DNA of 64,000 nucleotides. Origin: an uncultured Actinomycetes bacterium (GTDB taxonomy: Bacteria; Actinomycetota; Actinomycetes; Mycobacteriales; SCTD01). Made by a program: the position numbers and the translations under genes. Shown in pieces: positions 20,829-37,324 of the stretch. Under the pieces are notes generated by a model. The model was not told where the DNA came from and did no database searches. It saw only the letters and a program-made list of their open reading frames with translations. The DNA lies in the NCBI GenBank assembly GCA_963784675.1, contig CAWASE010000023.1:23792-87791 (forward strand), in the 5' to 3' direction. Position 1 is the stretch's first letter. Each line of letters opens with the position of its first letter.

Positions 20829-22235
20829 TCAGCCCAGCAGGGTGAGGTCGAGCGAGAGCACGACCCCGCCGACGATCCCCAGCCCGATCGACGCGGCGGC
20901 AGCGGCCACGGCGCACAATGCGGCGATCGGCCGTACGGCGACCGGAGCGGCCTGCGCGGCTCCGGTGCGGTCGAAGACCGGGGCCAGCCAGCGCAGGTAG
21001 TAGACCAGGCTGATCACCGTGTTCACGGCTGCCACGGCGACCAGCCAGCCGAACCCGCCGTCCAGGGCAGCGCCGAAGACGGCCACCTTTCCGACGAAGA
21101 CCGCCGTCGGCGGCGTGCCGACCAGACCGAGCAGGAGAACCAGCAGCGACAGGCCGAGCCAGGCGCGTCCGGCGGCGAGTCCGCGGTAGTGGTCGATCCG
21201 GGTCAGCGCCGGCAGCGCCGCCACCACGGCGAAGGCCCCGATGTTCGTGACCGCGTACGCCGCCAGGTACAGCGCGAGGGCGGGCAGGGCGAGCTCGGTA
21301 CGGGAGGCCACCGCGACAGCCATCAGCAGGTAACCGGCCTGGCTCACCGTGGACCAGCCGAGCAGCCGGCGGACGTCCTGCTGGGCGAGCGCCGCAAGAT
21401 TGCCCACGGTCATGGTCAAGGCCGCCAGCACGGCGAGCAGCACCGGCCAGCGGACGACGGTGTCGGGGACCACGGACAGGACGCGGAAGGCGGCGAGCAG
21501 TCCGCCCACCTTGGGGACCGTGGTGAGGATCGCGGCCGCCCCGGACCGGGACCCCTCGGCGGCGTCCGGCACCCAGAAGTGACCCGGGACGAAGCCGCCC
21601 TTGAAGGCCAGGCCGGCCAGCAGCGCCACCACGCCGGCCGCGACGGCTCCCCGGTACGTCTGGTCGAGTGCGCGCAGGTCGGCGTAGCCCGTCCCCCCGG
21701 CGACGCCGGACAGCAGCACGACGCCGACCAGCATGGCGACCCCCAGGAACGCCCCGAGCAGGTAGGTCTTCAGCGCCGCCTCGCTGCCGGCCCGGTCGCG
21801 CGCCGCACCTGCCAGTCCGTAGAGAGGGACGCTGGCGAGCAGGTAGCCCACCGACAGGACCAGCAGATCGTTGCTGCCGGCGAGCACCTGGCTGCCGAGG
21901 ACGGCGAACAGCAGCAGGACGTAGTGCTCGGTCTCGCGCCGGTCTCCCGCCACCTGTTCCCCGACGATGCCGAGCAGCAGCAGACCGGCGAGGGCGCCGA
22001 CGATCCGGGCGGTGGCAGTCACTCCGTCGACGGCGAACGTGTCGTCGAAGACGAGCCGGTCGGCGCCGGCCAGCGCCGCCACGGAGGCGACCAGCGACAC
22101 CACGAGAACCGCGGCCGTGGCGAGGCGCGCCAGCCACTGCCGCGAGCGCGGCAGGAAGGAGCCGAGCAGCAGAACGCCGGTCGCACCGAGCAGCAGGACC
22201 AGCTCGGGCAGCAGGGCGACGGGGTCCTCGTTCAA
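20829..22235 (-). CDS. NuoN-like antiporter-type subunit
   Basis: [78 protein letters not shown]; TTG overlaps the nuoM-like stop. Confidence 0.9.
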
Positions 22236-23737
22236 CGACCCACCAGGTCGGCGACGGCCCGCGCCGACGGCTCGACCACGTCCAGCAGCGGCCTCGGCAG
22301 GATCCCGATCAGCACCGAGAGCGCCAGCAGCGGGACGACGCCGGCGAGCTCGCTCGGCCGCAGGTCGCGCACCTTGCCGGTGCTCGGACCGGGCGTGCCG
22401 AGCAGCATCCGCCCGATGGCCAGCAGGAACAGCGCGGCCGTGACGAGCAGCCCGAGCAGCGCCACGATGACCCCGACCGGCGCCGAGCCGAGCGAGCCTG
22501 CCAGGACCTGGAACTCGGCGACGAACCCGGACAGACCCGGTAGCCCGAGGCTCGCGAAGCAGGCGAGCCCGAACAGTCCGGCGAAGCGCGGCGCCTGCGG
22601 TCCGAGCCCCCCGTACTGCGACATCTCGTAGGTCCCGGCGCGGTCCTGCAGCACACCGGCCAGCAGGAAGAGCGCACCCGTGACGAGTCCGTGGCTGACC
22701 ATCTGCGTGACGGCACCGGTCAGCGCCACCGTCCGGGCCTCGGCATCGGTGCTGCCGAGCATCCCGGCTGCCCCGACCGCGAGCAGGACGTAGCCCATGT
22801 GCGCGACCGAGGTGTAGGCGACCATCCGCTTCAGGTCCGTCTGCGCCAGCGCCACCAGGGCTCCGTACAGCACCCCGACGGCGCCGATCACGACAGCGAC
22901 GACCGCCCAGGTGCGCCACGCGTCCGGCAGCATCGGCATCGCGATCCGCAGGAAGCCGTAGGTGCCCATCTTGAGCAGCACGCCGGCCAGGATCGCGGAG
23001 CCGACCGCCGGGGCGTCCGTGTGCGCGGGGGGCAGCCAGGTGTGGAAGGGGACCGTCGGCGTCTTCACGGCGAGGCCGATGCCGATCGCCAGCAGCGCCA
23101 GCCCCCCGGCCAGACCGCGTCCCTGCAGCGCGGGGTTGCGGGTCAGCTCGACCATGTCGAACGTGTGCGGCGACGAGCCGGCGAACAGCACCAGGAAGCC
23201 GACCAGCAGCGCCAGGCTGCCCAGGAACGTGTAGAGGAAGAACTTCAGCGCCGACCGCGCCGCCTGGCCGTGGCCCCAGCCGGCGATGACGAAGTACATG
23301 CCGACGATGGACAGGTCGAAGAAGACGAAGAACAGGATCAGGTCCAGGCTCACGAACACGCCCAGGCACATCGTCTCCAGGAACAGCAGCAGCGCCGCGA
23401 AGGTGCGTGGCCGCAGCTGTTCCCGCCAGGCATAGAGCGCACAGCAGAAGAACAGGCCCGCGGTCAGCAGCACGAGCGGCAGCGACAGTCCGTCGACGCC
23501 GACGTGGTAGCTGCTGCCGACCGACGGGATCCAGGTCAGCGTGCGTTCGTGGGCGAAGCCACCGACGAGTCCCGCCCGGGGTTCGTAGGTGATCCAGAGC
23601 CCGAGCGCCAGGGCCAGCTCGGCCCCCGTGACGCCGATGAGCACGGCGCGGGCGGCGACGTCGGGAAGCCCGGGCACGGCGACCAGGACGACGGCCGTCA
23701 GCAGGGGAAGGAAGACCAGCAGGTCGAGCACGCTCAC
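22232..23737 (-). CDS. NuoM-like antiporter-type subunit
   Basis: [77 protein letters not shown]. Reads FFVFFD where canonical NuoM has FYxFWE. Confidence 0.92.
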
Positions 23738-24230
23738 CTCATCAGCAGCAGGAGCAGGGTGGACACGGCAAGCACGGCCGCAGCCTGGCCGTAGTACTGG
23801 TGCAGCTGTCCGGTCTGCAACCGACGGGCGCCCGCACCGCCGCGCGCGACCAGGCGGGTCACCGCGGCGACGGTCCCGTCGAGGCCGCCGAGGTCGAACC
23901 GCGCGGAGGCGCGAGCGGCGCTCGTGGTGGCGCGCGCGGTCCCGACCACCGCGCCGTCGAGGACGCCGTCGTCGCCTCGAGCGAGTGCCCCGGACACCGA
24001 GCGGACGCGGCGCGCGACCCGTTCGACGGAGCCGTCGACGATCTGGTCGTCGAAGACGGCCAGGGCCTGCGACAGCGCCAGCACCGGGCGCACGGCCACG
24101 GCGTGCGCGGCCTGCTCCATCAGCAGCCACCGGCTGAGCAGGGGGACGCGCGCCCTGCGTTCCCAGCGCGTCGTCGCGACGAGGACGACCAGGGCGAGCA
24201 CCGCCGACAGCAGCAGCCCGAGGACGCAGC
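23734..24230 (-). pseudogene. NuoL-like subunit, C-terminal fragment only (5' part deleted)
   Basis: FDDQIVDGSV...DDGVLDGAV...FDLGGLDGTV...ARRLQTGQLHQYY, the typical NuoL C-terminal helix/TM; frame breaks at the IS110 junction. Confidence 0.8.
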
Positions 24231-24233
24231 GCC

Positions 24234-24716
24234 GCCCGCTGGCGTCAGCTCAACGAGGACCTGGAGCGCGTCGAGGCCGACATGACCCGGCTGCTCGCGC
24301 TGACCGACGGTCAGGTCCTGACCAGCCTGCCGGGGGTCAAGGACGTCCGGGCGGCCTGCTTCAGCGCCTTCACCCTGCCGATCGACCGGTTCCCGACCGC
24401 CGAGCACCTCTACTCCGCGACCGGGCTCGCGCCCGCCCGCTACGAATCTTCAAGCCTGCGCAAGCGCGGCGGCATCAGCCGGCAGGGGCTGCCCGAGCAC
24501 CGCGACGCCCTGATGGGCATCGCCTGGGGCCTGAGCCAGTACTGCGGCCCGTTCATCGACCGAGAGGAGCAGCTCCGCGCCCGACACATGAGCCCGATCC
24601 AGGTCCGGGTGTCCCTGGCCCGACACGCCTGCCGGCTCCTGTTCCGGATGCTCACGACCCAGGAACCGTTCGACGAACAGCGTTACCGTCGAGCCCGGCA
24701 CCAGGTCAGGCAGTGA
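24234..24716 (+). pseudogene. IS110 transposase, C-terminal (Transposase_20-like) part; DEDD N-terminal domain missing
   Basis: ARWRQLNEDLERVEADMTRLL...LTSLPGV...IDRFPTAEHLYSATGLAPARYESSS...GISRQG...RDAL. Confidence 0.85.
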
Positions 24717-24845
24717 CGGCGCTCCCGCTATGCCGCACGACGGCGCAACCTAGCTAGCCGCCTGCCTGACCTGGGGCCACCTGACGGCGAAGACGAGAGC
24801 CTGCCGCACGACGGCGACTGATCAGCCTGCCGCACCCGGCCCCAC
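24701..24845 (+). ncRNA. Putative IS110 bridge/seek RNA (two stem-internal-loop modules)
   Basis: 13-bp stem 24701-24713/24762-24774 and 7-bp stem 24772-24778/24838-24844, each enclosing the module TGACGGCG-[variable]-TGCCGCACGACGGCG-[variable]-GCCGC. Confidence 0.65.
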
Positions 24846-24945
24846 TCGCCGAGCAACACCACAACGCTCAGCCGAGCCCGACACCACCAGCGGTCCCGGG
24901 CCGATGACCCACGCCCACGAACGACTTGACGCCGACAGGTGAGAG

Positions 24946-25491
24946 CTAGACCAGGAACGCCAGCGGCATGTGCACCACGTTCCAGCCGGCGCCCTGAGCA
25001 GCCGCGACCGCGCGCACGTCCAGGCTCTGCGCCACGACCGCCGGCGGGATCAGGGCGAACATCAGCGGCAGCTCATACGCCAGCGCAAGGGCCAGGAACC
25101 GGTAGCCGCCGACGAGCGCGAGCGTGCTCGCACCACCCCAGCCGAGCAACCACACCAGTGCCCAGACGCAGACGTCGAGCGCGTTGAACCAGACGACGCC
25201 CGCGGGCAGGTCGGCGACGACCTGACCTCCGATCGGGACGACCGCCATCATCAGGGCCGCGACGACGAGCAGGCCACCGCCACCGAGCCGCCACAGCAAG
25301 GCATCCGGGGCGGGGGTCGTCCGTCGACGTTGCACGAGCAGCCGGGCGACGTCAGGCCAGGGCGACAGCCCGGCCCGGGACGGAGGCTGACCTGCAGCGC
25401 GGGCGACGAGGTAGCGGTCCCCCACGGCGGCCGCCGTCGCCAGCACCGCCAGCGCCAGCAGGGCCGCAGGGGCGAGGAGCAGCTCAGGCAT
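24946..25491 (-). pseudogene. NuoH-like subunit truncated at 181 aa by the IS insertion
   Basis: RLLVQRRRTTPAPDALLW, DLPAGVVWF, LVGGYRFLALALAYELPLMF, AAQ..WNVVHMPLAFLV; the stop is created at the IS junction. Confidence 0.85.
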
Positions 25492-26596
25492 GCGCTCCCA
25501 CCCGTTCCAGGCAGGGCCCGAACGCCGCGACGACGGGAGCCGCGGACGCCAGGTCGAGTCCGGTGACGGCAACCTGAAGCTCGTGCAGCGACGCTCGCGG
25601 CACAGCCGCACGGTCCCGGACGGCAGCCACCAGCGCGTCCAGGTGAGCGACGAGGTCCCGCCCAGCAGGTCCGGGCAGTCCACGCAACGACCAGCGGAGC
25701 ACGCGCGCCTGCTCGGTCCGGCGCAGCAGGGCCTCGACCGCCGTCGCCTCGCCCTCACGGCGCGCCCGGCGCCCTCGCCGCGCGAGATCGTCCCAACCGG
25801 CCGCCGCCAGCAGCACCAGCAACGCGTCGAGCGGACCGGTCGGGTCTGCCTGCATTGGAGGCTGGTCCAGCACCTGCGCCGAGACTTCGGTCAGCACGTC
25901 ACCGGACAGCGTCACGGTCAGCTCGAGGCCGGCCGGCCAGCCGGGCAGGATCGGGCCGACCGTCTGTCGCAGCCCCTCGAGCCGGAGGCCGTCGCGGTCC
26001 GGGACGCGGTCAGCCATCACCAGGCCGCCGGGCAAGGACATGTCCATGCCGGCCATGTCGTGGTCCATCCCAGACATGTCCATGTCGTGGTCCATCCCAG
26101 ACATGTCCATGTCGTGGTCCATGCCGGCCATGTCCATGCCAGGCATGTCGTGGTCCATGCCAGCCATGTCCATGCCAGGCATGTCGTGGTCCATGCCGGC
26201 CGTGTCCATGCCGGCCGGGTCGTGGCTGTCCGGGCCAGCACCGTCGCCACCGCGATCGCGGGCGTCGTCGTGCTGCGCCCGCAGGTCGGCCAGCCGCTGC
26301 CGGGCCTGGTCGAGCCCGGCCTCGAGCCGCCCGACGTCGTCGACAAGTGCCAGGGCTCGCGGGCCCGGCATCGCCTCATAGGCGGCGTCCACGCGTCGGC
26401 TGAGCTCAGGACCCGCCGGTCCGCACTCCAGCAGCACGTCGGCCGCAGCAGGCGACAACGCTCGCGGCCAGCCACGCACGTCCAGCGCATCCTCGGCGGC
26501 CCGGTACACGTTGGCGTGGCCAGGGACAGGCACGAGCAGCACGTGCGGCCGCCGCACAGCAGCGGCGAGCAACCGGGCGGCCAGCGTGCGACTCAC
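25484..26596 (-). CDS. Degenerate NuoB-like / Met-His-Asp repeat / NuoD-N-like fusion protein
   Basis: SPAAADVLLECG...VDAAYEAMPGPR resembles NuoB SPRQADLMIVAG...VYDQMPEPK without the Fe-S Cys set; central MDHDM repeats; VGPILPGWPAGLELTVTLSGDVL resembles NuoD GPQHP...LRLILELDGE. Confidence 0.75.
   Translation of the reverse strand: MSRTLAARLLAAAVRRPHVLLVPVPGHANVYRAAEDALDVRGWPRALSPAAADVLLECGPAGPELSRRVDAAYEAMPGPRALALVDDVGRLEAGLDQARQRLADLRAQHDDARDRGGDGAGPDSHDPAGMDTAGMDHDMPGMDMAGMDHDMPGMDMAGMDHDMDMSGMDHDMDMSGMDHDMAGMDMSLPGGLVMADRVPDRDGLRLEGLRQTVGPILPGWPAGLELTVTLSGDVLTEVSAQVLDQPPMQADPTGPLDALLVLLAAAGWDDLARRGRRARREGEATAVEALLRRTEQARVLRWSLRGLPGPAGRDLVAHLDALVAAVRDRAAVPRASLHELQVAVTGLDLASAAPVVAAFGPCLERVGAHA
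26038..26217 (-). repeat. Coding tandem repeats GMDHDM / GMDM (15-36 bp units)
   Basis: ccatgtcgtggtccat-type units; the peptide contains 19 Met and five MDHDM motifs. Confidence 0.95.
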
Positions 26597-26600
26597 GTCG

Positions 26601-26951
26601 TCAGGACCATCGGAACGCGCCCTCGCGCCAGGCGTAGACCACGCCGGCGAGCAACAGCGCCAGGAAGGCGAACATCTCGATCACGGCGGACGCCCCGACC
26701 GAGGACACGACCACCGACCACGGGTACATGAAGAGCATCTCCAGGTCGAAGGCCAGGAAGACCAGGCTCATCGCATACCAGCGCGCATGGAAGCGGTGCA
26801 GGGCATGCTCGGTCGCCGCGGTCCCACCGGCCCACGGGTCGGCCACCAGAGGGGCCTGATGGATGCTGACCCGCCGCGACAGACCGTACAGCCCGACCAC
26901 CCCCAGACAGGCGAGCACCAGCAGCAGCACGGCACCTCCGTACGCACTCAC
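26601..26951 (-). CDS. NuoA-like subunit
   Basis: RFHARWYAMSLVFLAFDLEMLFMYPW...YAWREGAFRWS; 3 TM; GTG start. Confidence 0.9.
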   Translation of the reverse strand: MSAYGGAVLLLVLACLGVVGLYGLSRRVSIHQAPLVADPWAGGTAATEHALHRFHARWYAMSLVFLAFDLEMLFMYPWSVVVSSVGASAVIEMFAFLALLLAGVVYAWREGAFRWS

Positions 26952-26981
26952 GTCCCAGCCCCCTCTGCTTCCCTCTACCCC

Positions 26982-26996
26982 TACCCCCCAGGGGTT
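26982..26996. promoter_or_regulatory. Putative CsoR/RicR-type copper-responsive operator
   Basis: TACCCCCCAGGGGTT = ACCCC-N3-GGGGT palindrome about 30 nt upstream of nuoA-like; one mismatch to TACCCCnnnGGGGTA. Confidence 0.65.
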
Positions 26997-27083
26997 CTCC
27001 AACGCTCTCGGACGAAAATGACCCCGAGCGGTGTTTGCTCAGCAGGCGAGGTCGCCGGTCCTCGCCACGTCGAGAGGGACCTG

Positions 27084-34577: not shown

Positions 34578-36401
34578 TTACTTGCCGGCGGTCTCGGCTC
34601 CGGTCGACAGCGCGGCGATGAACGCCTCCTGGGGAACCTCGACGCGGCCGACCATCTTCATCCGCTTCTTGCCCTCCTTCTGCTTCTCGAGCAGCTTGCG
34701 CTTGCGGGTGATGTCACCGCCGTAGCACTTGGCCAGCACGTCCTTGCGGATGGCCCGGATGTTCTCGCGGGCGATGACGCGCGCACCGATGGCCGCCTGG
34801 ATCGGCACCTCGAAGTTCTGCCGCGGGATGAGCTCGCGCAGCTTGGACGCCATCGAGGTGCCGTAGGCATAGGCCTTGTCCTTGTGGACGATGGCGGAGA
34901 ACGCGTCGACCGGCTCGCTCTGCAGCAGGATGTCGACCTTCACCAGGTCCGACGCCTGCTCGCCGGACAGCTCGTAGTCCAGCGACGCGTAGCCCTTGGT
35001 CCGCGACTTCAGCTGGTCGAAGAAGTCGAAGATGATCTCGCCCATCGGCAGCAGGTAGCGCAGCTCCACCCGGTCCTCGGACAGGTAGTCCATGCCCTGC
35101 AGCACCCCGCGGCGCCCTTGGCACAGCTCCATGACCGTGCCGACGTACTCGCTGGGCAGCAGCACCATCGCCTTCGCGACCGGCTCGAGGATCTCCGCGA
35201 TCTTCCCGCCGGTGGGCCAGTCGCTCGGGTTGGTGACCACGACCGTCTCTCCGCTCTCCAGCACCACGTTGTAGACCACGTTCGGCGCGGTCGAGATCAG
35301 CGCCAGACCGGCTTCGCGCTCCAGCCGCTCGCGCACGATCTCCAGGTGCAGCAGTCCGAGAAAGCCGACGCGGAAGCCGAACCCGAGCGCGAGCGAGGTC
35401 TCCGGCTCGTACACCAGGGCCGCGTCGTTCAGGCGCAGCTTGTCCAGCGCCTCGCGCAGCGCCGGATACTCGCTGCCGTCGAGCGGATACAGGCCGGAGA
35501 ACACCATCGGCTTGGGGTCCTGGTACCCGCCGAGCGACTCGGTCGCCGCGTTGCGCACGGTGGTGAGGGTGTCGCCGACCCGCGCCTGCCGGACGTTCTT
35601 CACCCCGGGGATCACATAGCCGACCTCGCCGGCCGACAGGAACTCCGTCGGTTTCATGTCCGGGCTGACGACCCCCACCTCGAGGATCTCGTGCGCGTTC
35701 TGCGTGCTCATCATCAGCCCGCGGTCCTTGGTCGACAGCTGTCCGTCGAACACGCGCACGTAGGTGATGACGCCGCGGTAGCTGTCGTAGACGGAGTCGA
35801 AGATCATGGCCCGGGCGGGGCTGTCGACCCGGCCCATCGGTGCCGGGATGTCACGCACGATCGCGTTCAGGACGTCAGGCACGCCCTCGCCGGTCTTGGC
35901 GCTGATCCGCAGGACGTCCTCGGGCTCACATCCGATGATCTTGGCGATCTCGATCGCGTACTTCTCCGGCTGCGCCGCCGGCAGGTCGATCTTGTTCAGC
36001 ACCGGGATGATGTGCAGGTCGTTCTCCAGCGCCAGGTACAGGTTGGCCAGCGTCTGGGCCTCGATGCCCTGCGCCGCGTCGACGAGCAGCAGGGTGCCCT
36101 CGCAGGCGGCCAGCGACCGGGACACCTCGTAGGTGAAGTCGACGTGGCCCGGTGTGTCGATCATGTGCAGGACGTAGTCCTTGCCGTCGTCGGCCGTCCA
36201 CGGCAGGCGCACGTTCTGCGCCTTGATGGTGATGCCGCGCTCACGCTCGATGTCCATCTTGTCCAGGTACTGCGCGCGCATCTGCCGTGCGTCGACCACC
36301 CCGGTGAGCTGCAGCATGCGGTCGGCCAGCGTCGACTTGCCGTGGTCGATGTGGGCGATGATGCAGAAGTTCCGGATGATCGACGGATCGGTGACAGGCA
36401 C
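34578..36401 (-). CDS. lepA: Elongation factor 4
   Basis: [53 protein letters not shown]. Confidence 0.98.
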
Positions 36402-36481
36402 CGCTCCAGACTACGGACCGCCGGACCCGCCATCGGGTCCGCGCAGAGGGGCGCTGCTCGGCACTGCTCGGCCGGTCTCCC

Positions 36482-37324
36482 TCAGAGCAGTCTGGTCACC
36501 TCGACGACGACACCCAGCGACTGGGACCCGCCACCGGAGTACACGCCCTTGAGCGGAGTCACGTCGCCGTAGTCGCGACCGCGGGCGACGATCACGTGCC
36601 GGTCGCCGGCCGGCACGCCGTTGGTCGGGTCGAAGGCCCACCACCCTCCGAGCCAGACCTCGACCCAGGCGTGGCTCTCGCCGGTGACCATCTCCCCGAT
36701 CGCCGCGTCCGGGCGCGGGTGCAGGTAGCCGCTGACATAGCGCGCCGGCAGTCCTGCCGCCCGCAGCGTTGCCAGGCTGACGTGCGCGATGTCCTGGCAG
36801 ACGCCGGCGCCGAGGTCCCACGCCTCGGTCGCGGAGGTGGCGACGCCGGTGGTGCCCTGCCGGTAGGCGACCCGGTCGCGGACCGTCTCGCAGATGCTGC
36901 GCGCCGCCGCGTACGGCAGCTGGTCGGCCGTGAGGGTCGTGGCCAGGTCGGTCAGCGCCTCCCCGGGCAGGGTGCGGGGAGTCGGGGTGAGCAGCTCGAC
37001 GAAGCGGTCGCGGACGGCCTCGGTCGCGAGCAGGTCCCACCCGGGGGTCTCCGCCGGCTCGTCCGGGGTCGTCGTGTCGACGACCGACGTCGCCTGCACC
37101 TCCAGCGCCGTGTGCGGGACGTGCACGTCGAAGGAGGTGACCTGCGTTCCCCAGTAGTCCCAGTACCGCTGCTGCCGGCAGTCCGGTGTCGTCTGGACGC
37201 GGGCCTCGAGCGTCGTCTGCTCCAGGCCGGTCATCGGGGTGAGGCGCGCTTCGTTGTAGGAGCGACCCACCTCGGTGTCGTAGCGGTAGCCGGTGGTGTG
37301 CCGGATGCGCAGGCGCGCGCTCAC
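36482..37324 (-). CDS. Bacterial transglutaminase family protein
   Basis: LRIRHTTGYRY, SYNEARLTP, GVCQDIAH, ARYVSGY, SHAWVEVW, FDPTN, GRDYGDVTPLKG. Confidence 0.93.
   Translation of the reverse strand: MSARLRIRHTTGYRYDTEVGRSYNEARLTPMTGLEQTTLEARVQTTPDCRQQRYWDYWGTQVTSFDVHVPHTALEVQATSVVDTTTPDEPAETPGWDLLATEAVRDRFVELLTPTPRTLPGEALTDLATTLTADQLPYAAARSICETVRDRVAYRQGTTGVATSATEAWDLGAGVCQDIAHVSLATLRAAGLPARYVSGYLHPRPDAAIGEMVTGESHAWVEVWLGGWWAFDPTNGVPAGDRHVIVARGRDYGDVTPLKGVYSGGGSQSLGVVVEVTRLL

What the first reader, a model, noticed from the sequence alone, without database searches (positions are those of the whole stretch)
25484..26596. NuoB-like/NuoD-like fusion with Fe-S ligands lost and a 19-Met/5-His insert
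The N-terminus follows NuoB (SPAAADVLLECG...YEAMPGPR) but lacks the CC...C...CP ligand set of cluster N2. The C-terminal part starts like NuoD (GPILPGWPAGLELTVTLSGD) but is much shorter and lacks the quinone-site His. Between them sit five MDHDM and several GMDM units. Inference: a vestigial Q-module scaffold that docks on NuoH and presents a flexible metal-binding loop in place of a redox centre.
Basis: partly seen in the sequence, partly recalled or inferred. Interest (0 to 1): 0.75.

Follow-up and report, generated by a model that had tools for sequence, protein, structure and literature searches.

The report
Degenerate NuoB-NuoD fusion with methionine loop
This gene encodes worn-down copies of two respiratory complex I subunits joined by a methionine/histidine-rich loop; it belongs to a redox-less, complex-I-like membrane machine of actinobacteria that probably handles copper, and in this genome that machine's operon has been broken by a mobile element.

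Summary
Window 25484-26596 (-) is a 370-aa ORF with 19 Met in a 77-residue insert, five MDHDM units and only two Cys. A family profile and fold searches show an N-terminal NuoB-like domain (Z 9.5) and a shortened C-terminal NuoD-like domain (Z 10.8-11.2). The linker between them is disordered in the model.

The protein has no Pfam or NCBIfam hit. It belongs to a large actinobacterial family: 1255 clusters at 50% identity with E<=1e-3. In relatives the gene sits in a fixed operon nuoA-X-nuoH-J-K-L-M-N that lacks NuoC, E, F, G and I. Papers describe this operon as a "partial nuo operon" and a marine adaptation trait, and call X a hypothetical protein.

Three results are new here:
- The Met/His/Asp linker is a family trait (>=3 Met in 110 of 119 homologs).
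- NuoJ2 carries a conserved methionine stripe on TM3, and both conserved Glu of NuoK2 are flanked by Met.
- 44 of 80 related loci hold copper-homeostasis genes, and multicopper oxidase is about 20-fold enriched.

My best reading is a proton-driven Cu(I) antiporter derived from complex I, with X as its cytoplasmic cap. Copper transport is inferred, not shown.

In this genome an IS110 insertion plus a deletion removed the nuoH2 3' part, J2, K2 and most of L2. The gene here is probably a leftover.

The parts
25484..26596 (-). X: 370-aa NuoB-like/NuoD-like fusion protein (the finding)
   Evidence: ORF. No Pfam or NCBIfam hit. AF2 model with pLDDT 82.9 and pTM 0.75. Family of 1255 clusters at 50% identity with E<=1e-3.
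26249..26596 (-). Residues 1-116: NuoB-like flavodoxin-fold domain without Fe-S ligands
   Evidence: Profile vs PDB NuoB/NDUFS7, E 5e-5. hhalign vs own NuoB, 86% probability. VIA-align Z 9.5, rmsd 2.4, 104 residues aligned to 9ce2_I. Foldseek's top hits are all NDUFS7/NuoB. C58 is the only Cys in the domain.
26033..26248 (-). Residues 117-188: disordered Met/His/Asp/Gly repeat linker (five MDHDM units)
   Evidence: Composition. pLDDT below 50 over most of residues 118-193. DNA tandem repeats of period 27 and 36. Linker is variable but Met-rich in 110 of 119 homologs.
25487..26032 (-). Residues 189-370: shortened NuoD / [NiFe]-hydrogenase-large-subunit-like domain (N-terminal beta-sheet plus helical bundle)
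   Evidence: VIA-align: 7zm7_C Z 11.2 (171 aligned); 8qby_D Z 10.8, rmsd 3.2, 169 aligned over model 198-367; 6u8y_l Z 10.7; 7z0t_E Z 10.0. No sequence-level significance.
26601..27002 (-). NuoA2 (NuoA-like subunit; likely true start near 26930)
   Evidence: PF00507, E 4e-23. My gene call is 26601-26930. The family conserves the loop motif HAL-SR.H.RWY.
24946..25491 (-). NuoH2 fragment, truncated after about residue 181
   Evidence: PF00146 matches profile positions 13-180 of 298. Only residues 38-177 of a relative's 307-aa NuoH2 are found in the genome.
24225..24949 (+). IS110-family element, 3' 725 bp only (transposase C-terminal 144 aa at 24282-24716)
   Evidence: PF02371 and NF033542 positions 217-343 of 343. 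100% identical to G000:C12:68898-69622. Full copies are about 1550 bp.
23734..24201 (-). NuoL2 C-terminal fragment
   Evidence: TIGR01974 positions 549-612 of 630. Only residues 491-614 of a relative's 630-aa NuoL2 are found.
22232..23737 (-). NuoM2 (intact)
   Evidence: TIGR01972, E 2e-146. 82% identical to a relative's NuoM2 over 480 residues.
20829..22235 (-). NuoN2 (intact)
   Evidence: TIGR01770, E 1.8e-85. 76% identical to a relative's NuoN2 over 436 residues.

Best explanation
X is the cytoplasmic cap of a redox-less membrane complex derived from complex I (NuoA2-X-NuoH2-J2-K2-L2-M2-N2), found in Actinomycetota. It fuses a NuoB-like domain that has lost all Fe-S ligands to a shortened NuoD-like domain that has lost the quinone-site His. 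A disordered Met/His/Asp repeat joins the two. The invariant motifs of X (GW, SPADAD, PGPR, GPxLPxWPAG, GD, LRWSL) form the surface that sits on NuoH2, where the Q-module sits in complex I. These points are shown, or supported by models. Inferred: the complex works like an Mrp antiporter, with Cu(I), and perhaps Ag(I), as the cation. Protons would flow in through the three antiporter-like subunits, which keep their conserved Lys/Glu. That flow would drive Cu(I) out through a path lined by the methionine stripe on NuoJ2 TM3 and the Met-flanked Glu of NuoK2. The X linker, the His-bearing NuoA2 loop and the Met/His loop after NuoJ2 TM3 would collect Cu(I) on the cytoplasmic side. In this genome an IS110 insertion in nuoH2, followed by a deletion, removed the nuoH2 3' part, J2, K2 and most of L2. 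The intact X gene is therefore most likely a recent non-functional leftover.
For: Domain identity:
- The family profile hits NuoB/NDUFS7 chains in the PDB (best E 5e-5).
- hhalign against the genome's own NuoB gives 86% probability.
- Foldseek's top 10 are NDUFS7/NuoB chains.
- VIA-align ranks 1-4 are NuoD-family chains (Z 10.0-11.2, 161-171 residues aligned). Ranks 5-7 and 9 are NuoB-family chains (Z 8.5-9.5).

Operon:
- X was called in 61 loci. A2 lies at -1 in 55 of them, H2 at +1 in 55, J2 at +2 in 54, K2 at +3 in 53, and L2/M2/N2 at +4/+5/+6 in 54/53/50.
- No NuoC, E, F, G or I cluster appears.

Docking:
- Complex prediction of X with NuoH2 from locus L069 scored 0.77; the best of 3 controls scored 0.00.
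- That mark was reached by 116 of 157 solved complexes and by 2 of 215 mismatched pairs.
- The runs agree in at least 81% of contacts, and the partner's pLDDT is at least 75.
- The interface residues coincide with the family's invariant motifs.

Metal link:
- Linker composition is D 20%, G 17%, M 14.5%, H 9.5%, against M 1.3% and H 2.7% in the rest of the proteins. There are >=3 Met in 110 of 119 linkers.
- NuoJ2 has about 17 Met columns conserved at >=90% in 70 sequences. Its Met fraction is 0.098, against 0.027 in the canonical NuoJ.
- NuoK2 has a Met fraction of 0.100 against 0.051, with Met next to both conserved Glu.
- The Met-rich helix is TM3 of the NuoJ/ND6 fold.
- M65, M69, M72, M76 and M80 fall on one helix face.

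Context:
- 44 of 80 loci, and 33 of 53 loci of >=18 kb, hold at least one of: multicopper oxidase, CopM/DUF305, P1B-ATPase with HMA domain, CsoR, Csp1/DUF326, CopZ. Eighteen of the 53 hold two or more kinds.
- Multicopper oxidase is present in 10 of 31 loci against about 0.5 expected from at most 123 matches in 157 Mb (Poisson P 1.7e-10).
- In two of those genomes (G015, G021) the only match lies next to the operon.

Antiporter modules:
- The conserved Lys/Glu/His of L2/M2/N2 match the genome's canonical NuoL/M/N.

Decay in this genome.
Against: - No metal binding or transport was measured; the copper function rests on context and composition.
- 36 of 80 loci show no copper gene in the DNA fetched. 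These include the closest relatives (L010-L014) and the Mycolicibacterium loci L012, L038, L048 and L073.
- The window's own operon has no copper gene beside it.
- The regulators next to the operon differ between loci: two-component pair in 15, ArsR in 10, CsoR in 7, MerR in 4.
- A CsoR-like palindrome lies upstream of nuoA2 in the window, but none was found upstream of A2 in the 66 related loci.
- Met-rich copper sites are typical of periplasmic proteins, and X is predicted to be cytoplasmic.
- Copper islands are mobile, so co-location could be hitchhiking.
- The complex model may pass through likeness to solved complex I.
- The NuoJ2 model has only moderate confidence (pLDDT 68.6).
- Published papers propose osmotic or marine adaptation instead (passages read).
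Confidence: 0.55

Rival explanations
1. The complex is an Mrp-like Na+(K+)/H+ antiporter or a proton-handling device for salt or marine adaptation, as papers on the 'partial nuo operon' propose. X only caps it.
For: PMC6676996 and PMC6002675 (passages read) report the operon in marine or sponge-derived Streptomyces, Salinispora and Kocuria and not in the terrestrial strains they compared. L2/M2/N2 keep the antiporter residues. NuoJ2's first three helices also resemble the MrpA C-terminal domain (6z16_A, Z 8.8). A Na+/H+ exchanger gene lies nearby in 4 loci.
Against: Without a redox module the complex cannot generate a proton gradient, as those papers assume. Soft Met/His ligands in X, NuoA2, NuoJ2 and NuoK2 do not suit Na+. 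Relatives include soil, cold-habitat and mine organisms. Copper genes are enriched around the operon. PMC6676996 itself notes a strain from copper-rich mine fluids, and PMC6002675 one from a copper mine.
Confidence: 0.15
2. X is only a structural plug that stabilises a relic membrane arm. The linker is a tolerated low-complexity spacer that expands by slippage. The copper genes are neighbours because both travel on mobile islands.
For: Linker length ranges from 6 to 215 residues, and 2 of 119 homologs have no Met in it. The DNA repeats are young. The operon behaves as an inserted island in Mycolicibacterium. Transposases occur in several loci. 36 of 80 loci lack copper genes.
Against: The same Met/His/Asp composition recurs across a family down to about 35% identity. 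The conserved Met in NuoJ2/NuoK2 lie within transmembrane helices in 69-70 sequences and cannot be explained by slippage. The invariant X motifs map to the modelled NuoH2 interface.
Confidence: 0.15
3. The complex handles copper, but not for efflux. It could be proton-driven delivery of Cu to secreted cuproproteins (multicopper oxidase, CopM, Csp1), or a copper sensor that gates ion flow.
For: The commonest neighbours are proteins of families that are as a rule extracytoplasmic: CopM/DUF305 in 27 loci and multicopper oxidase in 20. A CopM-like gene sits at -2 on the same strand in 7 loci.
Against: CsoR, the P1B-ATPase, CopZ and the two-component pairs point to a response to copper excess. No chaperone-docking feature was found.
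Confidence: 0.1
4. The ORF is a chance open frame or an annotation artefact in GC-rich DNA.
For: High-GC DNA (about 73% GC) gives many long spurious ORFs.
Against: 239 homologs with E<=1e-3 and 1255 clusters. A confident fold. A conserved operon position.
Confidence: 0.01

Closest known systems
Q-module of respiratory complex I (NuoB/NDUFS7 plus NuoD/NDUFS2)
   Same: Both folds are present, in B-then-D order. They are encoded between nuoA and nuoH. X is modelled on NuoH through the N-terminal helix, the PGPR region and the beta1-beta2 loop.
   Different: The two are fused into one 370-aa chain. There is no cluster N2 (2 Cys in all). The D part is cut to about 180 residues from the 454 of the genome's own NuoD. 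The loop His is replaced by an invariant Trp-Pro. A Met/His/Asp linker is inserted. No NuoC, I, E, F or G partners exist.
The 'partial nuo operon' (nuoA, hypothetical, nuoH-J-K-L-M-N) of Salinispora, Streptomyces and Kocuria, proposed as marine adaptation genes
   Same: Relatives have the same gene order, with a hypothetical gene between nuoA and nuoH (passages of PMC6676996 and PMC6002675; my loci). Kocuria and Streptomyces species are among my 80 loci.
   Different: PMC6676996 (figure 7 legend) calls the hypothetical proteins without homologs in UniProt or PDB, and both papers discuss proton pumping or osmoadaptation. Here the gene is identified as a NuoB-NuoD fusion, and the operon is linked to copper genes and Met-lined subunits. 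The window's copy is broken.
Mrp-type multisubunit cation/H+ antiporter
   Same: No redox module. Three (Mrp: two) antiporter-like subunits with conserved Lys/Glu. A small-subunit region resembles the MrpA C-terminal domain. The proposed working principle is the same.
   Different: It has NuoH and NuoA homologs plus a cytoplasmic B/D cap, which Mrp lacks (recalled). The candidate cation path is lined by Met rather than by hard ligands.
Membrane-bound hydrogenase (MBH), sulfane reductase (MBS), formate hydrogenlyase and 11-subunit NDH-1
   Same: These are reduced relatives of complex I without the NADH module. Their L- and J-type subunits are among the best fold matches: 6u8y_l, 6cfw_L, 7z0t_E, 6cfw_J.
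   Different: Those keep Fe-S clusters and a catalytic or quinone site (recalled). X has none.
Met/His-rich copper motifs of CopA/PcoA, CueO and the CopB N-terminus; Met relays of CusA and Ctr1 (recalled, not tested)
   Same: MDH/MxxM-type repeats. The family profile's linker weakly aligns to the CueO chain 8r4f_A (E 0.4, not significant). The Met stripe on a transmembrane helix recalls Ctr1 and CusA.
   Different: PcoA and CueO motifs are periplasmic, while X is predicted to be cytoplasmic. There is no homology outside the low-complexity stretch.

Membership tests
NuoB / NDUFS7 (Pfam PF01058) | Flavodoxin-like fold superposable on NuoB | tested here: met
   VIA-align Z 9.5 (rmsd 2.4, 104 aligned, 9ce2_I), 9.4 (8iuf_S7) and 8.8 (8b9z_B) over model residues 1-109. 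Foldseek's top 10 are NDUFS7/NuoB, E about 1e-2, probability 1.00.
NuoB / NDUFS7 (Pfam PF01058) | Sequence match above the family's curated threshold | tested here: not met
   No Pfam or NCBIfam hit at E<=0.01. There is only a local profile match of 38-47 residues (E 5e-5; hhalign 86%).
NuoB / NDUFS7 (Pfam PF01058) | Four Cys ligands of Fe-S cluster N2 | tested here: not met
   The whole protein has two Cys (C58, C362). C58 aligns to Ala of the canonical VAG. The canonical copy keeps the CC motif.
NuoD / NDUFS2 / [NiFe]-hydrogenase large subunit (Pfam PF00346) | Fold of the large subunit | tested here: inconclusive
   A partial fold only. Z 10.8-11.2 with 169-171 aligned residues, against chains of 410-427 residues. 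The aligned chain ranges run nearly end to end (5-412 in 8qby_D), so inner parts of the fold are skipped.
NuoD / NDUFS2 / [NiFe]-hydrogenase large subunit (Pfam PF00346) | Sequence match to the family | tested here: not met
   No Pfam hit. hhalign vs the genome's own NuoD gives E 0.11, probability 0.5%.
NuoD / NDUFS2 / [NiFe]-hydrogenase large subunit (Pfam PF00346) | Quinone-site His on the beta1-beta2 loop | tested here: not met
   In the non-significant hhalign alignment, the His of GPQHPSTHG falls on Pro221, which is invariant with Trp220. The quinone-site Tyr was not examined.
Actinobacterial partial nuo operon (nuoA-X-nuoHJKLMN) | Gene order A, X, H, J, K, L, M, N without NuoC/E/F/G/I | tested here: not met
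   Met in relatives (50-55 of the 61 loci with X called). In the window A, X, M and N are intact, but H is truncated, J and K are absent from the whole genome, and L is a C-terminal fragment. The window holds a broken member.
Mrp-type cation/H+ antiporter | Antiporter-like subunits with conserved charged transmembrane residues | tested here: met
   Charged residues of L2/M2/N2 conserved at >=90% coincide with identical residues in the genome's canonical NuoL/M/N. Examples: L K248, K362, K418; M K283, K314, E456; N E135, K279, K423.
Mrp-type cation/H+ antiporter | Cation/proton exchange activity; MrpA-G subunit set | not testable with these tools
   Activity needs vesicle assays. The subunit set differs, since NuoH, NuoA and X are present, so this is likeness of working, not membership.
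Met/His-rich copper-binding repeats | Repeated Met/His motif | tested here: met
   Five MDHDM units and 19 Met in 77 residues. The trait is family-wide.
Met/His-rich copper-binding repeats | Cu(I)/Ag(I) binding | not testable with these tools
   Needs titration of the peptide. Only context supports it.

The most novel reading that the evidence does not exclude
The actinobacterial nuoA-X-HJKLMN complex is a proton-driven Cu(I)/Ag(I) exporter built from complex I. The former E-channel (the NuoJ2 TM3 methionine stripe and the Met-flanked Glu of NuoK2) has become a soft-metal path. The gutted Q-module (X) has become a cytoplasmic copper-collecting lid. This would be the first transition-metal transporter in the complex I/Mrp superfamily, and a new class of copper resistance determinant.
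Probability: 0.4. Interest if true: 0.9.

Novelty: new variant of a known kind. Interest (0 to 1): 0.78.

Why it matters
Complex I relatives are known to couple redox chemistry, or Na+ exchange in Mrp, to proton flow. A version stripped of all cofactors and re-lined with methionines next to copper resistance genes would extend the superfamily to transition-metal transport. It would also give a natural experiment on how the E-channel and Q-site region couples to the antiporter modules without any quinone chemistry.

The result also revises a repeated claim in comparative-genomics papers that the partial nuo operon is a marine or osmotic adaptation trait. It names the 'hypothetical protein without homologs' at the operon's centre. 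The family is large (590 clusters at E<=1e-30) and has no Pfam or NCBIfam model, so a family definition would improve annotation of many actinobacterial genomes.

Tried and rejected
- Pfam and NCBIfam scans of X gave nothing at E<=0.01.
- Foldseek against the PDB gave no match at E<=0.001. The NuoB chains ranked first at E about 1e-2. The NuoD likeness became clear only with VIA-align wide.
- hhalign against the genome's own NuoD was not significant.
- A CsoR-type operator pattern (motif recalled, not from a tool) gave one hit in the 64-kb window, at 26982-26996 just upstream of nuoA2. However, 23 of 100 shuffles also gave at least one hit somewhere in the window. A looser ACCCC-N(1-7)-GGGGT search found it upstream of A2 in 1 of 67 cases, and that case was the window itself. 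I rejected it as a conserved regulatory feature.
- The 'ABC transporter with YHS domain' cluster was dropped from the copper count. Only its representative was scanned, and other members may be ordinary ABC ATPases. The counts fell from 46 to 44 of 80 loci.
- Cluster 10 (13 loci) is an opposite-strand ORF over the repeat region. I treated it as a gene-calling artefact.
- Three look-ups of earlier findings returned nothing.
- Seven literature searches found no paper linking this operon or protein to copper or to NuoB/NuoD (plus passages of PMC12361115). Subscription journals are not covered. Penn and Jensen 2012, Ian 2014 and Sun 2018 are cited in PMC6676996; I read passages of Sun 2018 (PMC6002675) and saw Ian 2014 only in a search listing.
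- I did not search for split forms (B-like or D-like alone). All of the best 150 of the 1255 representatives are 301-654 aa, and nearly all span both halves. The rest were not seen.
- I did not look for expression data.
Full report
**1. What is there**

The window is GC-rich, about 73%. On the minus strand, 25484-26596 is an open frame of 370 codons. It lies 4 nt after a NuoA-like gene (26601-27002, PF00507, E 4e-23). Its stop overlaps the ATG of a NuoH-like gene.

Residues 117-193 hold 19 Met, 6 His, 19 Asp and 14 Gly. There are five MDHDM and three GMDM units. The protein has two Cys in all.

The DNA under the insert is a young tandem array. One array has period 36 with 95% matches, and another has period 27 with 94% matches.

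**2. What the two halves are**

Pfam and NCBIfam give no hit. A word-index search found 239 homologs with E<=1e-3 among 8000 scored candidates. All of those that carry a name are called 'hypothetical', and none has a Pfam domain on record.

I aligned 29 of these homologs (A1). A profile of A1 hits NuoB/NDUFS7 chains in the PDB over residues 35-83. The best E-value is 5e-5, and all but three of the 42 listed sequences are NuoB-family proteins. hhalign against the genome's own NuoB gives 86% probability and E 4.9e-6.

The AlphaFold model built on A1 has pLDDT 82.9 and pTM 0.75. It has two well-folded parts, with low confidence between about 118 and 193.

- Foldseek ranks NDUFS7/NuoB chains first, but none reaches E<=0.001.
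- VIA-align against 48,161 representative chains puts four NuoD-family chains on top. These are 7zm7_C (Z 11.2), 8qby_D (Z 10.8, rmsd 3.2, 169 residues aligned over model 198-367), MbsL (Z 10.7) and HycE (Z 10.0).
- NuoB-family chains come next, at Z 8.5-9.5 over model residues 1-109 (up to 126 for 7eu3_K).
- By sequence the NuoD likeness is not significant (E 0.11). It pairs GPILPGWPAGLELTVTLSGD with [20 protein letters not shown] and puts the canonical loop His on the invariant Pro221.

X is therefore a NuoB-like domain without Fe-S ligands, fused to a NuoD-like domain cut to about 180 residues.

**3. The family and its operon**

A full HMMER search over 1.84 billion representatives found 1255 clusters at E<=1e-3, 1001 at E<=1e-10 and 590 at E<=1e-30. 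The best 150 are 301-654 aa, and nearly all span both halves.

In one-genome-per-species contigs, 244 stretches encode a relative. The best 80 were kept, and all are Actinomycetota.

I called genes in these loci with a GC3-based script and clustered them. X was called in 61 loci. In the other 19, an opposite-strand frame over the repeat or a short contig got in the way.

Among those 61 loci the neighbours are fixed:

| Gene | Position relative to X | Loci |
|---|---|---|
| NuoA2 | -1 | 55 |
| NuoH2 | +1 | 55 |
| NuoJ2 | +2 | 54 |
| NuoK2 | +3 | 53 |
| NuoL2 | +4 | 54 |
| NuoM2 | +5 | 53 |
| NuoN2 | +6 | 50 |

Subunit identities were checked on locus L069. No NuoC, E, F, G or I gene belongs to the set.

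This operon type is already in print. PMC6676996 and PMC6002675 describe nuoA, a hypothetical protein, then nuoH-J-K-L-M-N in Streptomyces, Salinispora and Kocuria (passages read). They treat it as a marine or osmotic adaptation trait. PMC6676996 calls its hypothetical proteins without homologs in UniProt or PDB.

**4. Docking**

I modelled X and NuoH2 of locus L069, each with a 34-row alignment. The score was 0.77 and the best of 3 controls scored 0.00. That mark was reached by 116 of 157 solved complexes and by 2 of 215 mismatched pairs. The runs agree in at least 81% of contacts, and the partner's pLDDT is at least 75.

The contacting residues of X are:
- the N-terminal helix;
- the GW/SPADAD and PGP stretches;
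- the beta1-beta2 loop;
- the GD and LRWSL motifs.

These are the family's invariant columns. Both anchor points of the linker lie among the interface residues. Because complex I structures are solved, this pass may show likeness rather than prove binding.

**5. The linker across the family**

Of the 120 listed homologs, 119 have both flanks. In those the linker is 6-215 residues long, median 53.

| Linker feature | Homologs (of 119) |
|---|---|
| >=3 Met | 110 |
| >=5 Met | 92 |
| >=1 His | 103 |
| any Cys | 2 |
| no Met | 2 |

Linker composition is D 20%, G 17%, M 14.5% and H 9.5%. The rest of the proteins have M 1.3% and H 2.7%. One relative, P0068, has 39 Met and 39 His in a 215-residue linker.

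**6. Methionines in the membrane subunits**

This goes beyond the finding as given. I aligned each family-2 subunit with the genome's own canonical subunit. Rows outside 0.8-1.25 times the median length were dropped, as were the window's own copies.

- NuoJ2 (70 sequences) has about 17 Met columns conserved at >=90%, at places where the canonical NuoJ has hydrophobic residues. It also has a conserved Glu and a conserved His. Its median Met fraction is 0.098 against 0.027.
- NuoK2 (69 sequences) has a median Met fraction of 0.100 against 0.051. Invariant Met sit beside both conserved Glu, as VMVMMGLELM and MTxEMA.
- A model of NuoJ2 (pLDDT 68.6) places the Met-rich segment in helix 56-80. Residues 1-94 superpose on TM1-TM3 of NuoJ/ND6/NdhG at Z 8-10.
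- M65, M69, M72, M76 and M80 fall on one helix face.
- TM3 is followed by the conserved loop GMNPALMPMxMVH.
- NuoA2 conserves HAL-SR.H.RWY in its first loop.
- L2, M2 and N2 are not Met-rich, and they keep the canonical Lys/Glu/His.

From recalled structural work, TM3 of ND6/NuoJ and the two Glu of NuoK belong to the E-channel next to the quinone site. The ND3 loop and the ND6 TM3-4 loop lie on the cytoplasmic side, beside NuoD.

**7. Copper context**

I scanned representatives of the accessory gene clusters. The number of loci holding each cluster is given below.

| Accessory gene | Loci (of 80) |
|---|---|
| CopM/DUF305 (two clusters together) | 27 |
| Multicopper oxidase | 20 |
| Histidine kinase / response regulator pair | 15 |
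| P1B-ATPase with HMA domain | 11 |
| ArsR | 10 |
| CsoR | 7 |
| Csp1-type DUF326 | 7 |
| CopZ-like HMA | 4 |
| MerR | 4 |

At least one strict copper gene lies in 44 of 80 loci and in 33 of the 53 loci of >=18 kb. Two or more kinds lie in 18 of those 53.

As a baseline, PF07732 gave at most 123 matches in the 31 genomes I could reach, which total 157 Mb. That predicts about 0.5 matches in the DNA fetched. Ten of the 31 loci have a multicopper oxidase (P 1.7e-10). In two of those genomes the only match lies next to the operon.

Against this, 36 of 80 loci show no copper gene. They include the closest relatives and the window itself.

**8. State of the operon in this genome**

NuoH2 matches only profile positions 13-180 of 298. 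A relative's NuoJ2 and NuoK2 find nothing anywhere in the genome. NuoL2 is present only as residues 491-614 of 630. NuoM2 and NuoN2 are intact.

Between the two stumps lies the last 725 bp of an IS110-family element. Full copies of about 1550 bp lie on contigs C12 and C19. One insertion into nuoH2, followed by one deletion running from inside the element into nuoL2, explains the layout.

The genome keeps a complete canonical nuoA-N operon on C12. X is still an intact frame, so the loss is probably recent. The complex cannot be assembled here.

**9. Reading**

Shown or model-supported:
- the domain identity of X;
- the loss of cofactor ligands;
- the fixed operon;
- the modelled seat on NuoH2;
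- the family-wide Met/His linker;
- the Met-lined NuoJ2 and NuoK2;
- the enrichment of copper genes;
- the decay of the operon in this genome.

Inferred:
- the complex exchanges protons for Cu(I), in the manner of Mrp;
- X and the neighbouring loops collect the metal on the cytoplasmic side.

I put 0.55 on this whole reading. I put about 0.9 on the structural part alone.

The rivals are a salt-related antiporter, a mere structural plug whose copper neighbours are hitchhikers, and copper delivery or sensing rather than efflux.

I found no paper linking this protein or operon to copper or to NuoB/NuoD. Subscription journals are outside that library.

Noticed in passing
window 24225-24949: This is the 3' 725 bp of an IS110-family element, 100% identical to G000:C12:68898-69622 and 99.3% identical to a copy on C19. 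Full copies are about 1550 bp with a transposase of roughly 400 aa. The truncated end abuts the nuoL2 stump, and the intact end abuts the nuoH2 stump.
   Followed up: yes
window 26982-26996: The palindrome TACCCCCCAGGGGTT lies just upstream of the likely nuoA2 start. It resembles a CsoR-type operator (recalled). It is the only hit in the 64-kb window, but no such site was found upstream of A2 in the 66 related loci.
   Followed up: yes
window 34578-37324; L012, L038, L048: In three Mycolicibacterium loci the operon and a few extra genes lie between homologs of two genes that are adjacent in the window. This suggests the operon is an inserted, mobile island.
   Followed up: partly
G000:C12:31921-33313 (outside the window): A small trio of genes lies just beyond the canonical nuoN: a NuoB-like gene (140 aa, keeps the CC motif), a 178-aa gene and a gene with Cys-rich (CxxC) motifs. 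It may be another reduced complex-I-like module.
   Followed up: no
G000:C2:16772-17474 (outside the window): PF00346 (NuoD / hydrogenase large subunit) matches here in three adjoining pieces with different open frames. This may be a frameshifted or divergent gene.
   Followed up: no
protein P0068 (relative, 544 aa): This relative has an extreme linker of 215 residues with 39 Met and 39 His in MDHSG/MDHST repeats. Linker length varies from 6 to 215 across the family.
   Followed up: partly
L014, L016, L017, L019, L028 and others: An ArsR-family regulator is present in 10 loci. In 6 of them it lies two genes upstream of X on the opposite strand, so it is probably transcribed divergently from nuoA2. 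It is a candidate metal sensor for the operon where no CsoR or two-component pair is present.
   Followed up: no
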